DNA from: Escherichia coli
GTDB taxonomy: Bacteria > Pseudomonadota > Gammaproteobacteria > Enterobacterales > Enterobacteriaceae
DNA length: 64,000 bases
Strand: one strand, 5' to 3'
Assembly (NCBI RefSeq): GCF_017348835.2
Contig: NZ_CP071375.1
Below, in pieces: positions 9,001-15,000 of the stretch. Numbering within the stretch: position 1 is the first letter of the stretch; every line of letters starts with the position of its first letter. The position numbers are program-made.

Positions 9001-12000
9001 CACAGGCAATGGCGATAGTCGCCAGATTGACAGTATCGGTTTTAAGTGTGCCATCGACCAGATATCCTTCCAACACATCCAGACTACGGTTGATTTTCTC
9101 CCGCTGGCGTAACAGTTCATCTTCAGACTGCTGCGCCGCTGGACGCGCCTGTTCACGCACCGATACCAGCCCGGCATCCATAATGCCATCCGCCAGTGCC
9201 TCAATTTTGCGCACCCGCAACGACTCCAGCGGAGCGCGCGGCAACATCGCCGGAGCGACATTCATTAATTCAATATATTCAGCGATGATCGGCGAATCAA
9301 ACCAGCAGTCGCCCTCTTCGGTCACCAGCACCGGCACTTTTCCTAACGGGTTAAATTGCGCCACGCCGTTGTCCGCGTTATAGGGCAGTTCATTAATAAA
9401 TTCGAAAGTTATGCCCTTTTCTAACAACAGAATAGAAAGTTTGCGTACAAACGGGCTGGTGTAGCTACCGACGAGTTTCATGCCGAGTCCTTTGTGCGAG
9501 GAAAAATATCAGTATGGCCTGGTGATGGGAAAAAGGGCAGAAAATGTTGATGGTTTGTCACCTCCCAATAAATCACATATTTATCATGGTGATATAAATA
9601 TTTTCCTAATTGTTCTTATCTGACAGATATCTCACTTAAGGCTTTCTTATAAATCTGTAGGGTTTTGCCTGTCAGCGGACAAATAACCCGATAATACAAG
9701 GATGAGCAGATGAGCGGAAAACCGGCGGCGCGTCAGGGCGACATGACGCAGTATGGCGGTAGCATTGTCCAGGGTTCAGCCGGGGTGCGCATCGGTGCCC
9801 CCACCGGCGTGGCCTGTTCGGTGTGCCCCGGCGGGGTGACGTCCGGCCATCCGGTCAATCCGCTGCTCGGTGCAAAGGTCCTTCCCGGTGAAACCGACAT
9901 CGCCCTGCCCGCCCCGCTGCCGTTCATTCTCTCCCGCACCTACAGCAGTTACCGGACAAAAACGCCCGCGCCGGTGGGGAGCCTCGGCCCCGGCTGGAAA
10001 ATGCCTGCGGATATCCGCTTACAGCTGCGCGATAACACACTGATACTCAGTGATAACGGCGGCAGAAGCCTGTATTTTGAGCACCTGTTTCCCGGTGAGG
10101 ACGGTTACAGCCGCAGCGAATCACTGTGGCTGGTGCGCGGCGGCGTGGCGAAACTGGATGAAGGTCACCGGCTGGCCGCACTCTGGCAGGCGCTGCCGGA
10201 AGAACTCCGCTTAAGTCCGCATCGTTATCTGGCGACAAACAGTCCGCAGGGGCCGTGGTGGGTACTCGGCTGGTGTGAGCGGGTGCCGGAAGCGGATGAG
10301 GTGCTGCCTGCGCCGCTGCCGCCGTACCGGGTACTGACCGGGCTGGTGGACCGCTTCGGGCGCACACAGACGTTCCACCGCGAAGCCGCCGGTGAATTCA
10401 GCGGCGAAATCACCTGCGTGACGGATGGTGCCGGGCGTCACTTCCGGCTGGTACTGACCACGCAGGCGCAGCGGGCAGAAGAAGCCCGGCAGCAGGCCAT
10501 TTCCGGCGGGACGGAACCGTCCGCTTTTCCTGATACCCTTCCGGGTTACACCGAATATGGCCGGGACAACGGCATCCGTCTGTCTGCCGTGTGGCTGACG
10601 CACGACCCGGAATACCCGGACAACCTGCCAGCCGCGCCGCTGGTGCGCTATGGCTGGACGCCGCGCGGCGAACTGGCGGCAGTGTATGACCGCAGCAATA
10701 CACAGGTGCGCAGCTTTACTTACGATGATAAATACCGGGGCCGGATGGTGGCGCACCGTCACACGGGCCGACCGGAAATCCGTTACCGTTACGACCGCGA
10801 CGGGCGGGTGACAGAACAGCTAAACCCGGCAGGCTTAAGCTACACGTATCAGTATGAGAAAGACCGCATCACCATCACCGACAGCCTGGACCGCCGTGAA
10901 GTGCTGCACACGCAGGGCGAAGGCGGGCTGAAGCGGGTGGTGAAAAAGGAACACGCGGACGGCAGCGTCACGCAGAGTCAGTTTGACGCCGTGGGCAGGC
11001 TTAAGGCACAGACAGATACGGCAGGCCGGACGACTGAGTACAGCCCGGATGTGGTGACGGGACTCATCACGCGCATCACCACACCGGATGGCAGGGCATC
11101 GGCATTTTACTATAACCACCACAGCCAGTTAACGTCAGCCACCGGGCCTGACGGGCTGGAATTGCGCCGGGAATATGATGAATCCGGCCGTCTGATTCAG
11201 GAAACTGCACACAACGGCGATATCACCCGCTACCGTTATGATAATCCACACAGTGACTTACCCTGCGCAACGGAAGATGCCACCGGCAGCCGGAAAACCA
11301 TGACGTGGAGCCGTTACGGCCAGTTGCTGAGCTTCACCGACTGTTCCGGTTATGTAACCCGTTATGACCATGACCGCTTCGGGCAGATGACGGCGGTGCA
11401 CCGCGAGGAAGGGCTGAGTCAGTACCGCGCATACGACAGCCGTGGACAGTGAATTGCCGTGAAAGACACGCAGGGCCATGAAACGCGGTATGAATACAAC
11501 ATCGCCGGTGACCTGACCGCCGTCATTGCCCCGGACGGCAGCAGAAACAGGACACAGTACGATGCGTGGGGAAAGGCCGTCCGTACCACGCAGGGCGGGC
11601 TGACGCGCAGTATGGAATACGATGCTGCCGGACGGGTCATCCGCCTGACCAGTGAAAACGGCAGCCACACCACCTTCCGTTACGATGTACTCGACCGGCT
11701 GATACAGGAAACCGGCTTTGACGGCCGCACACAGCGTTATCACCACGACCTGACCGGCAAACTTATCCGCAGCGAGGATGAGGGGCTGGTCACCCACTGG
11801 CACTATGACGAAGCAGACCGCCTCACGCACCGCACCGTGAATGGCGAAACCGCAGAGCGGTGGCAGTATGATGAACGCGGCTGGCTGACAGACATCAGCC
11901 ATATCAGCGAAGGGCACCGGGTGACGGTGCATTACGGGTATGATGAGAAAGGCCGGCTGACCGGTGAGCGTCAGACGGTGCATCACCCGCAGACGGAAGC

Positions 12001-15000
12001 ACTGCTCTGGCAGCATGAGACCAGACACGCTTACAACGCGCAGGGGCTGGCGAACCGCTGTATACCGGACAGCCTGCCCGCCGTGGAATGGCTGACCTAC
12101 GGCAGCGGCTGGCTGGCAGGCATGAAACTCGGCGACACACCGCTGGTGGAGTACACCCGCGACCGCCTGTACCGGGAAACGCTGCGCAGATTCGGCCGTT
12201 ATGAACTCACCACCGCTTACACCCCTGCCGGGCAGTTACAGAGCCAGCACCTGAACAGCCTGCAGTATGACCGCGATTACACCTGGAACGACAACGGCGA
12301 ACTCATCCGCATCAGCAGCCCGCGCCATACCCGGAGTTACAGCTACAGCGACTCCGGCAGGCTGACCGGCGTTCACACCACGGCAGCGAACCTTGATATC
12401 CGCATCCCGTATGCCACGGACCCGGCAGGTAACCGCCTGCCCGACCCGGAGCTGCACCCGGACAGCACCCTCAGCATGTGGCCGGATAACCGTATCGCCC
12501 GTGACGCGCACTATCTTTACCGGTATGACCGTCACGGCAGACTGACAGAGAAAACCGACCTCATCCCGGAAGGGGTTATCCGCACGGATGATGAGCGCAC
12601 CCACCGGTACCATTACGACAGTCAGCACCGGCTGGTGTACTACACGCGGACACAATATGCAGAGCCGCTGGTCGAAAGCCGCTATCTTTACGACCCGCTG
12701 GGCCGCAGGGTGGCAAAACGGGTATGGCGACGTGAACGGGACCTGACGGGCTGGATGTCGCTGTCACGGAAACCGGAAGTGACCTGGTACGGCTGGGACG
12801 GCGACCGCCTGACCACAATACAGAACGACAGAACCCGCATCCAGACGATTTATCAGCCGGGGAGCTTCACGCCACTCATCAGGGTTGAAACCGCCACCGG
12901 TGAGCTGGCGAAAACGCAGCGCCGCAGCCTGGCGGATGCGCTTCAGCAGTCCGGCGGCGAAGACGGTGGCAGTGTGGTGTTCCCGCCGGTGCTGGTGCAG
13001 ATGCTCGACCGGCTGGAAAGTGAAATCCTGGCTGACCGGGTGAGTGAGGAAAGCCGCCGCTGGCTGGCATCGTGCGGCCTGACTGTGGAGCAGATGCAAA
13101 ACCAGATGGACCCGGTGTACACGCCGGCGCGAAAAATCCACCTGTACCACTGCGACCATCGCGGCCTGCCGCTGGCGCTTATCAGTGCGGAAGGGGCTAC
13201 AGAATGGTGCGCAGAATACGATGAATGGGGCAACCTGCTGAATGAAGAGAACCCGCATCAGCTGCAGCAGCTTATCCGCCTGCCGGGGCAGCAGTATGAT
13301 GAGGAGTCCGGCCTGTATTACAACCGCCACCGCTATTATGACCCGCTGCAGGGGAGGTATATCACTCAGGATCCGATTGGGCTGAAGGGGGGATGGAATT
13401 TTTATCAGTATCCGTTGAATCCGATAACTGATATTGACCCGTTGGGATTAGCGACCTGTTTATACAGCATAACTTTAAGTATGCTTTCATGCGTTTCAGA
13501 TACGCAAAATGATGATAACTCTTATGATGTGCTTACTATTCCTGTCGCCTCTGGTAATAATGGTAATAATATGCAATGTAAAAATAATCCTGGTTGTACA
13601 CACTTACAAAATAGAGGTCCAATACCTCAAGGGGTATGGAGCTGGAATGTTAATGGTCCTGGAGCAACCAATAGAAAACCTAATGGTATACGTTTAGTAC
13701 CGTCAGCAAATACAGAAACATATAATCGTGATGGATTTTTAACACATAGTTGTTTAAACGCTTTCGGTCCGTCTTTAGGACCTCGATTCTGTTCCGAGGG
13801 TTGTATAACTGGTTCATCTAATGACATGCAAAAATTAAATGAGTTAATATTTTCAGAGCCAGATAGCACATTAACAGTTACGGACTAAAAAATATGGCAA
13901 AGTTATTAACAATTGTATTTTTTTCTCTATTTCTGCGAGTGCAGTTACTGCAAGACAATTTCAGAGAGAGTTAGATTTGGCAGACAAAGCAATATTATGG
14001 GCACTAATATCAGCCAGTACTAAAGAGGGACGAAAAGCGTGTTCACTTAGCTATTTTGCCTGTAAGGCCGCAGAGGCTGAACTCGGACTGGCATATATGG
14101 CTGCGAATGATAACAAGGAATTTCTCACATCCTTATCTAATATAATGAGGTACAAAATAGATGCTGGACTTTCCGAATCCTATACATGCTATTTATTAAG
14201 TAAGGGAAAGATCATAAGACCATATCTGAAAAATCTAAATCCACTCCAACTTGCCGCTGATTGCATTGAAACAGTAAATAAAATAAAAGATAAGAATAAA
14301 AAAATCATTGATATAAATTCAGTTAATATTTGTAGTGATGATAAAAATATAAAATTGAGAGTTAATAGTACTATTATGGCCATTGATGATTCTATAAAAT
14401 GCATCGATGAATAATAACTTAATTTTATTTAAAAATATATTAATAAGTCACTCTCCAGGAGTTTTTTTAACTTAGTTTTATAATGAATACGATAATTAAA
14501 AGTGAAGAAGAAAATAGTTGTATACATATATTCCATGACCCTACATTGTGATCTATAGATTAAATATTTTTTAAATGTGACTGTCATCCTTCAGATAATA
14601 AAGCCATCATCGCAATAGATGGAAAAGCACTCCTGCTCTTTTTTGATTAGAGCCGTCGCAGGAGGAACAACTCATATCATCATTGCGATCTCGACAATGT
14701 ATAGTCTGATCCTTCGGCAGATCAAGACGGATAAAAAATCCAATGAGTTCACACTCATCCCGAACTTCTTAACATAATGGATATTAACGAAAAATCATCA
14801 CAGCCGATGAAATAATATGCAAAAATAATTAGTCCTTACAAGGAGCAAAGTTCCATAATCTCCCCCCTCCCCCTCAATGATCCAAATAAAGATAATGCAT
14901 CCAGCTGGTCATTCTTAGCAGCACTTTTCGCATCACCGAAACATGACTGAAATGGTCGGAGTAAACTGCCACCTGGGCGTAAATGCCGTCGGGTAAGGCA

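What the first reader, a model, noticed from the sequence alone, without database searches (positions are those of the whole stretch)
9710..13888. rhsA split by a single in-frame TGA
The Rhs gene is otherwise intact (PAAR-like N-terminus, YD-repeat core, DPLGL junction, toxin tip), but TGA at 11450-11452 replaces what I remember as a Leu codon in the sequence ...[16 protein letters not shown]. Both halves stay in one frame. The gene is therefore either a recent pseudogene, a base-call error, or dependent on UGA readthrough. This matters because it separates the delivery module from the toxin tip.
Basis: partly seen in the sequence, partly recalled or inferred. Interest (0 to 1): 0.55.

Follow-up and report, generated by a model that had tools for sequence, protein, structure and literature searches.

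The report
Private nonsense mutation truncating an Rhs toxin
One base change found in no other E. coli genome turns a leucine codon into a stop in the middle of an Rhs toxin gene, so this is an ordinary, very recent pseudogene (or, less likely, a sequencing error) in a toxin system that was already decaying.

Summary
The reading frame 9710-13888 has a single interruption, TGA at 11450-11452 (codon 581 of 1393).

The two closest complete genomes, pig E. coli strains PE164 and F2_81, carry an intact 4179-nt "RHS element core protein" at the same yibF-yibH (rhsA) locus. Over 12.4 kb, PE164 differs from the window at one base only: 11451 is G here and T there (TGA versus TTA, Leu). F2_81 also has T at that position.

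The TGA allele is absent from 5,426 complete E. coli genomes. The TTA version of the same 41-mer occurs at 8,075 places. The TGA allele is also absent from the metagenome and GTDB contig collections.

Nothing indicates recoding: no SECIS, no stable hairpin and no Shine-Dalgarno sequence for restart.

The best reading is a strain-private T-to-G nonsense mutation. It yields a 64-kDa fragment that lacks about two thirds of the Rhs shell and the Tlde1-like toxin tip.

The module was already degenerate. Its Imm57 immunity gene is frameshifted (T8 to T7, in the signal peptide) in the whole lineage. In both relatives the aspV T6SS island is a deletion remnant.

A base-call error cannot be excluded without reads (about 0.2). 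Interest is low.

The parts
9710..13888 (+). rhs gene at the rhsA (yibF-yibH) locus. One frame, 1392 codons plus the terminal TAA, interrupted once.
   Evidence: The repaired protein equals WP_096220420.1 'RHS element core protein' of PE164 and F2_81. NF041261 scores 2644 bits.
9710..11449 (+). 5' part: the 580 codons that would be translated (64.4 kDa). It contains the N-terminus with a literal PAAR tetrapeptide, DUF6531 (nt 9845-10078) and the first YD repeats.
11450..11452 (+). Premature TGA (codon 581). Base 11451 is G here and T (TTA, Leu) in PE164, F2_81 and 8,075 other E. coli Rhs copies.
11453..13885 (+). 3' part, in frame but downstream of the stop: the remaining YD-repeat shell, the RHS-associated core and the toxin tip. 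The first in-frame start is GTG 11459, with no Shine-Dalgarno sequence.
12970..13440 (+). Stretch homologous both to the 3' end of a main rhs core and to the orphan rhs fragment of other strains. This is the inferred crossover zone that fused the orphan tip to the main core.
   Evidence: two overlapping blastn pieces against DSM 103246, L005.
13436..13450 (+). DPLGL core/tip junction (residues 1243-1247).
   Evidence: The TIGR03696 Rhs_assc_core match ends at residue 1247.
13451..13885 (+). A+T-rich C-terminal toxin tip, Tlde1-like (the Pfam hit covers nt 13571-13837).
   Evidence: PF10908, E 8.6e-6. GC falls from about 0.62 to 0.38.
13894..14414 (+). Imm57-family immunity gene, frameshifted. 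The T run at 13918-13924 is T7 where the intact allele has T8. The shift lies in the signal peptide, near codon 9.
   Evidence: Annotated 'frameshifted' in PE164 and F2_81. The intact homologue matches Pfam Imm57 at E 1.9e-47.
8873..9481 (-). yibF (glutathione S-transferase), left flank of the rhsA locus.
14874..16010 (-). yibH (HlyD family), right flank of the rhsA locus.

Best explanation
A very recent, strain-private T-to-G transversion at 11451 changed Leu581 (TTA) to TGA in the only full-length clade-I rhs gene of this lineage, making it a pseudogene.

Shown:
- The change is one base against otherwise identical DNA.
- It is unique among thousands of genomes.
- It falls in the middle of the YD-repeat shell.

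Inferred from established knowledge of translation and Rhs structure:
- RF2 terminates at the UGA and releases a 580-residue, 64.4-kDa fragment. This fragment has the N-terminal region and about a third of the shell, but cannot close the cocoon and carries no toxin.
- The 2.4 kb of untranslated mRNA downstream is exposed to Rho-dependent polarity.
- At most a few per cent of ribosomes would read through with Trp-tRNA and give a full-length L581W protein.

The loss is most likely neutral decay. The cognate periplasmic immunity gene had already lost its start and signal peptide by a T8-to-T7 frameshift in the common ancestor of this strain, PE164 and F2_81. In both of those relatives the aspV T6SS island is reduced to tssF, tssG, tssA and a vgrG fragment.
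For: Sequence comparison:
- a single in-frame TGA.
- one mismatch in 12,401 bases against PE164, at 11451 (G versus T).
- F2_81 also has T at 11451.
- across about 58 kb there are only two window-private substitutions (11451 and 51742) and no private indels, so the assembly looks clean.

Rarity of the allele:
- the 41-mer with TGA has 0 hits in 5,426 genomes.
- the same 41-mer with TTA hits 3,073 genomes at 8,075 places. This is the positive control.
- the truncated protein and the TGA 28-mer are absent from the other public collections.
- PE164 has a single copy of this core stretch, so there is no paralogue to donate the change or to confuse read mapping.

Gene anatomy:
- the stop lies inside the Rhs shell. 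The alignment to Tse5 (8cp6) spans query residues 286-917.

Decay of the surrounding system:
- the immunity gene is frameshifted, and the same frameshift is annotated in PE164 and F2_81.
- the vgrG-fragment/tssF deletion junction is shared by PE164 and F2_81 only.

Literature:
- PMC2935791 scores rhs pseudogenes and relics at loci across E. coli strains.
Against: - No reads are available, so a base-call or consensus error at 11451 cannot be excluded.
- T6SS status was examined at one locus (aspV), and only in the relatives, not in the window's own genome. Another T6SS could exist.
- PE164 and F2_81 keep the rhs gene intact despite the broken immunity gene, so decay is not far advanced.
- Neutrality of the loss is inferred, not shown.
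Confidence: 0.75

Rival explanations
1. Base-call, polishing or assembly error: the real genome has TTA at 11450-11452 and the gene is intact.
For: - The G is seen in no other sequence anywhere.
- It is one of only two private substitutions in about 58 kb.
- It is a transversion, whereas 12 of the 14 substitutions against F2_81 are transitions.
Against: - The position is not in a homopolymer or a Dam/Dcm motif.
- The window shows no private indels against PE164 over about 58 kb and keeps all homopolymer runs identical, so the assembly appears to be of high quality.
- This lineage has only one copy of this core stretch, and no paralogue in any genome carries G, so mis-mapped paralogous reads cannot explain it.
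- Real divergence from PE164, about 3e-5 per site, is at least as high as typical finished-genome substitution error rates. That error-rate figure comes from general knowledge.
Confidence: 0.2
2. Selected loss of function: once the periplasmic immunity protein was lost, sibling cells became sensitive to the Tlde1-type toxin, and a nonsense mutation that silences the toxin was favoured. This is an adaptive version of the best explanation. Its probability is a subset of the 0.75 given there.
For: - The immunity frameshift predates the stop and is shared with PE164 and F2_81.
- Tlde1-type toxins act in the periplasm and need a cognate immunity protein (PMC9638812).
- The intact Imm57 homologue has an N-terminal signal-peptide-like sequence that the frameshift removes.
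Against: - PE164 and F2_81 tolerate an intact rhs gene with the same broken immunity gene.
- Their aspV T6SS island lacks the sheath, tube and membrane-complex genes, so there is probably no delivery and hence no fratricide to select against.
- This is one mutation in one strain, with no parallel events.
Confidence: 0.1
3. Programmed recoding or a functional two-part gene. The UGA would be decoded as selenocysteine or by programmed readthrough, or translation would restart at GTG 11459, so that both halves are made and work together.
For: - Both halves stay in one frame, and a GTG lies 7 nt after the stop.
- selA and selB lie about 1 kb upstream.
- UGA is the leakiest stop codon in E. coli K-12, with about 2-4% readthrough of a reporter (PMC10570021).
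Against: - No SECIS or other Rfam match at E up to 10, apart from a chance hammerhead hit upstream.
- No stable hairpin after the UGA: z = +0.67, and 148 of 200 shuffles fold at least as well.
- No tRNA gene in the window.
- The ancestral codon is Leu and the TGA occurs in 0 of 5,426 genomes, so nothing can have evolved around it.
- The 20 nt before GTG 11459 hold no Shine-Dalgarno-like motif.
- A C-terminal fragment would lack the N-terminal loading region.
- The selAB neighbourhood is the normal K-12 gene order.
Confidence: 0.03

Closest known systems
Intact allele WP_096220420.1, 'RHS element core protein', in E. coli PE164 (NZ_CP114128.1) and F2_81 (NZ_CP043542.1)
   Same: Same locus (yibF-rhs-imm57-yibH), same length (4179 nt) and same frameshifted immunity gene. 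PE164 is identical to the window over 12.4 kb apart from one base.
   Different: Codon 581 is TTA (Leu) there and TGA here.
rhs pseudogenes and relics of E. coli (Jackson et al. 2009, PMC2935791)
   Same: Clade-I rhs loci are scored as pseudogenes or relics in various strains. The G+C-rich core, A+T-rich tip and displaced tips match the classic anatomy.
   Different: This one is at the earliest possible stage: a single nonsense substitution, with no further decay inside the ORF.
Main/orphan rhs recombinants of Salmonella Typhimurium LT2 (Koskiniemi et al. 2014, PMC3967940)
   Same: An orphan tip with its immunity gene has been fused to the main core through a shared stretch of core homology (window 12970-13440), deleting the former main tip.
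   Different: In Salmonella the fusion activates a deployable toxin and was selected for. Here the fused gene was later inactivated, and its immunity gene is broken.
Tlde1a/Tldi1a T6SS effector-immunity pair of Salmonella (PMC9638812)
   Same: The tip matches Pfam Tlde1_dom. The partner immunity protein has a signal peptide, as expected for a toxin that acts in the periplasm.
   Different: - The domain is an Rhs-borne tip, not a stand-alone effector.
- The immunity protein belongs to the Imm57 family, not Tldi1.
- There is no sequence-level match to any solved structure.
- Activity is untested.
Selenoprotein genes such as fdhF (UGA plus SECIS)
   Same: An in-frame UGA in an E. coli gene.
   Different: There is no SECIS hairpin, the UGA is not conserved, and the ancestral residue is Leu.

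Membership tests
RHS element core protein (NCBIfam NF041261; clade-I E. coli Rhs) | Full-length match to the equivalog model above its curated cut-off | tested here: met
   2644 bits against a cut-off of 2000, residues 1-1247. Tested on the repaired (TTA) sequence.
RHS element core protein (NCBIfam NF041261; clade-I E. coli Rhs) | YD/RHS repeats and an Rhs-associated core ending in DPxGL, followed by a variable tip | tested here: met
   TIGR01643, PF05593 and TIGR03696 all match, and DPLGL is at residues 1243-1247. GC drops at the tip.
RHS element core protein (NCBIfam NF041261; clade-I E. coli Rhs) | Uninterrupted reading frame, i.e. a functional gene | tested here: not met
   TGA at codon 581.
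T6SS-delivered PAAR-Rhs effector | A recognisable PAAR domain at the N-terminus | tested here: inconclusive
   PAAR_motif at E 0.18, residues 3-20 only (model positions 52-69 of 70). The literal PAAR tetrapeptide is at residues 5-8. DUF6531 is significant.
T6SS-delivered PAAR-Rhs effector | A functional T6SS and a cognate VgrG in the same genome | tested here: inconclusive
   There is none in the window. In the near-identical relatives PE164 and F2_81, the aspV island keeps only tssF, tssG, tssA and a vgrG fragment. Other loci and the window's own genome were not examined.
Tlde1 (L,D-transpeptidase-like) toxin domain, Pfam PF10908 | Significant match to the domain model | tested here: met
   E 8.6e-6, 26.6 bits, covering model positions 10-105 of 120.
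Tlde1 (L,D-transpeptidase-like) toxin domain, Pfam PF10908 | Catalytic Cys/His and peptidoglycan L,D-carboxypeptidase or exchange activity | not testable with these tools
   A ...THSC...SEGC... stretch is visible in the tip, but there is no residue-level alignment to Tlde1a. phmmer against PDB sequences found nothing.
Toxin-immunity module with a working immunity gene | An intact cognate immunity ORF directly downstream | tested here: not met
   a 1-nt deletion in the T run removes the start and signal peptide from the Imm57 frame. The intact homologue matches PF15596 at E 1.9e-47.
Selenocysteine or programmed UGA recoding site | A SECIS-type hairpin immediately 3' of the UGA | tested here: not met
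Selenocysteine or programmed UGA recoding site | The UGA (or Cys/Sec) conserved at the homologous position in relatives | tested here: not met
   0 genomes with TGA, and 8,075 copies with TTA in the identical 41-mer. Searches also found none.

The most novel reading that the evidence does not exclude
The TGA is a selected attenuation rather than neutral decay. After the lineage lost its periplasmic Imm57 immunity protein, this strain silenced the Rhs-Tlde1 toxin to stop sibling intoxication. Leaky UGA decoding by Trp-tRNA would leave a trickle of full-length (L581W) effector.
Probability: 0.07. Interest if true: 0.35.

Novelty: already known. Interest (0 to 1): 0.1.

Why it matters
It matters little beyond annotation. 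The gene should be labelled a pseudogene with an internal stop, or flagged for read-level verification, and not annotated as two Rhs proteins or as a recoded gene.

In context it is a small, clean snapshot of how a polymorphic-toxin module erodes. The order of events is inferred in part from DSM 103246 and from the relatives PE164 and F2_81:
1. An orphan tip was fused to the main core.
2. The immunity gene was lost by homopolymer slippage, and the T6SS island was deleted.
3. Last, the effector itself acquired a nonsense mutation.

If the source isolate is used for competition or colonisation work, its rhsA-locus effector should be assumed null.

Tried and rejected
- Selenocysteine or programmed readthrough. 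An Rfam scan of 11300-11650 at E up to 10 gave only a chance hammerhead hit upstream. Folding of the 66 nt from the UGA is no better than shuffles. The window has no tRNA gene. Rejected.
- Restart at GTG 11459. There is no Shine-Dalgarno motif in the 20 nt upstream, and the GTG is simply the conserved Val of ...IAVKD.... Rejected as a designed feature.
- Looking for the allele elsewhere. An exact-product look-up of the 580-aa fragment and scans for the 28-mer in the metagenome and GTDB genome contigs all came back empty.
- Family libraries. PADLOC found nothing for the N-terminus, the tip or the immunity protein. NCBIfam found nothing for the tip or for the window's frameshifted immunity ORFs. 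phmmer of the tip against PDB sequences found nothing.
- Gene conversion from a paralogue as the source of the G. Rejected, because no Rhs copy in 5,426 genomes has it and this lineage has one copy of the stretch.
- Genome-wide T6SS status. I did not establish it for the window's own strain. Only the aspV island of the two relatives was examined.
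Full report
**Observation.** The window holds an ORF at 9710..11452 (580 codons, ending in TGA) and, in the same frame, an ORF at 11459..13888. Translating 9710-13888 gives 1392 residues with one stop, at codon 581, in ...[23 protein letters not shown]....

**What the gene is.**
- With the stop repaired, the protein matches the NCBIfam equivalog RHS_core NF041261 over residues 1-1247 (2644 bits, cut-off 2000). It also matches YD_repeat_2x and Rhs_assc_core.
- Pfam finds DUF6531 at residues 46-123, RHS repeats on both sides of the stop, the hyperconserved RHS domain, and a Tlde1 domain in the tip (E 8.6e-6).
- DPLGL is at residues 1243-1247.
- GC falls from about 0.62 in the core to 0.38 in the tip and about 0.3 in the next gene, which is the classic rhs pattern (PMC2935791).
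- The PAAR call is weak. The literal tetrapeptide PAAR sits at residues 5-8, but the Pfam match has E 0.18 and covers 18 residues.
- The closest solved relatives are Rhs cocoons. Tse5 (8cp6, E 4e-126) aligns to residues 286-917, so residue 581 lies in the middle of the shell.
- The truncated product would be 64.4 kDa and the full length 157.3 kDa.

**Comparison with relatives.**
- The 6.2 kb around the gene matches two complete genomes in one piece at essentially 100%: pig strains PE164 (China) and F2_81 (Australia). Both annotate an intact 4179-nt 'RHS element core protein' (WP_096220420.1) between yibF and yibH, which is the rhsA locus of K-12.
- A base-by-base comparison with PE164 over 12,401 bases finds one difference: 11451 is G in the window and T in PE164, giving TGA versus TTA (Leu). 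F2_81 also has T.
- Over the roughly 58 kb shared by all three, the window has only two private substitutions, this one and 51742. It has no private indels.
- The window is not simply either of these records. It lacks PE164's IS3 insertion and a 6-bp insertion in the YadA-like adhesin gene. It differs from F2_81 at 14 substitutions and one indel.

**Is the TGA found anywhere else?**
- A 41-mer centred on the TGA cannot seed a megablast hit if the central base differs. It finds nothing in 5,426 complete E. coli genomes.
- The same 41-mer with TTA finds 8,075 places in 3,073 genomes. This shows that the negative result is meaningful.
- The truncated protein is not on record.
- A 28-mer with the TGA is absent from the metagenome contigs and from the GTDB representative genomes.
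- PE164 has a single copy of this core stretch, so there is no paralogue to donate the change or to mislead read mapping.
- The allele is therefore private to the source of this window. It arose after that source split from a genome that differs from it at about 3 in 100,000 sites.

**Recoding.** selA and selB sit about 1 kb upstream, but that is the normal gene order.
- Nothing resembling a SECIS follows the UGA. Rfam at E up to 10 reports only a chance hammerhead match upstream.
- The 66 nt from the UGA fold no better than shuffles (z = +0.67).
- The window encodes no tRNA.
- The first in-frame start after the stop, GTG 11459, is the conserved Val of IAVKD and has no Shine-Dalgarno motif upstream.
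- Because the ancestral codon is Leu and the stop is private, no recoding apparatus could have evolved around it.
- Background UGA readthrough by Trp-tRNA was about 2% at 37 °C and about 4% at 25 °C for a reporter in K-12 strain BW25113 (PMC10570021). As far as I recall, K-12 has an unusually weak RF2, so a wild strain should read through less. At most a trace of full-length L581W protein is expected.

1. *The gene is a chimera.* In strain DSM 103246 the same locus has a full-length rhsB-type gene with its own tip and yhhH, then yibA, then an orphan rhs fragment with the Tlde1 tip and an intact Imm57 gene. Window 12970-13440 aligns both to the end of that main core and to the orphan fragment. 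A crossover in this roughly 470-bp homology therefore appears to have deleted about 2.3 kb and fused the orphan tip to the main core. This is the mechanism shown experimentally in Salmonella (PMC3967940). The tip-plus-Imm57 module matches 3,696 of 5,426 genomes. In the K-12 records sampled it is annotated as an rhs fragment next to Imm57, and it is usually about 94% identical to the window. The compact one-piece arrangement is seen only in PE164 and F2_81.
2. *The immunity gene is broken.* The T8 run in the signal-peptide region of the intact 173-aa Imm57 protein (Pfam PF15596, E 1.9e-47) is T7 here. That separates the ATG and the first 9 codons from the rest. The next canonical start in the correct frame is TTG 13977, past the signal peptide. 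PE164 and F2_81 carry the same frameshift, so it predates the nonsense mutation.
3. *The delivery machine is degenerate in the relatives.* The aspV T6SS island of PE164 contains only tssA, tssG, tssF, a vgrG fragment and rhs fragments. The vgrG-fragment/tssF junction is shared by PE164 and F2_81 and by no other complete genome. Elsewhere tssE precedes tssF.

**Mechanism.** I commit to the following.
- *Shown:* a de novo T-to-G transversion made TGA at codon 581.
- *Inferred:* RF2 terminates there. The 64-kDa fragment cannot form the closed Rhs cocoon and has no toxin. Rho-dependent polarity lowers expression of the distal 2.4 kb and of the already defective immunity gene. The effector is null.
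- *Selection:* because immunity, and probably delivery, had already been lost, the mutation is most likely neutral decay. rhs pseudogenes and relics are a documented feature of E. coli genomes (PMC2935791). PE164 itself has another large surface-protein gene with an internal stop, fdeC.
- *Adaptive variant:* silencing the toxin to end sibling killing after immunity loss is conceivable. It is weakened because the two relatives keep rhs intact with the same broken immunity gene.

**Rival: sequencing error.** I cannot see reads. In favour, the G is unique and is a transversion. Against:
- The site is not in a homopolymer or a methylation motif.
- The window shows no indel noise relative to PE164 across about 58 kb, including all its homopolymer runs.
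- No paralogous sequence could have contributed the base.
I put this rival at about 0.2.

**Verdict.** This is a real feature of the sequence, correctly described. It is best read as a brand-new nonsense pseudogene in an eroding Rhs-Tlde1/Imm57 module. The kind is well known, and interest is low.

Noticed in passing
window 13894-14414 (T run at 13918-13924): The Imm57-family immunity gene downstream of rhs is frameshifted by a T8-to-T7 change inside its signal peptide. PE164 and F2_81 share the frameshift. It could in principle be a slippage-prone or phase-variable tract, or a shared homopolymer artefact.
   Followed up: partly
window 12970-13440: This stretch is homologous both to the end of a main rhs core and to the orphan rhs fragment of other strains. 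It is the probable crossover that fused the widespread orphan Tlde1 tip to the main core and deleted the former tip, yhhH and yibA. The compact one-piece architecture is seen in only 2 of 5,426 genomes.
   Followed up: partly
window 51742 (waaY/rfaY, 51195-51902, minus strand): This is the only other window-private substitution against PE164 and F2_81. It changes WaaY Arg54 to His in the LPS core heptose(II) kinase. PE164 has its own private change in the same gene (E126D, window position 51525).
   Followed up: partly
window 22931-27778: The 1615-aa YadA-like trimeric autotransporter adhesin is intact here and in F2_81. In PE164 it is split by an IS3-family insertion and carries a 6-bp insertion near window position 24369.
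   Followed up: partly
L007 3366-18884 (PE164 aspV island; not in the window): The T6SS island next to tRNA-Asp is a remnant: tssA, tssG, tssF, a vgrG fragment and several rhs fragments with AHH/Imm11 and SymE genes. The deletion junction is shared only with F2_81.
   Followed up: partly
window 5543-8775 (selB, selA, minus strand): The selenocysteine machinery genes lie about 1 kb upstream of the UGA-interrupted gene. This is the normal K-12 gene order and a coincidence. No SECIS follows the UGA.
   Followed up: yes
window 2778-4073 (minus strand): A 431-aa ORF lies between yiaY and aldB at the position where F2_81 annotates a Fic family protein. It looks like an accessory insertion relative to my recollection of K-12.
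   Followed up: no
window 5484-5490: An intergenic T7 run between yiaY and selB is one T shorter in F2_81. This is the only indel between the window and F2_81 in 64 kb.
   Followed up: no
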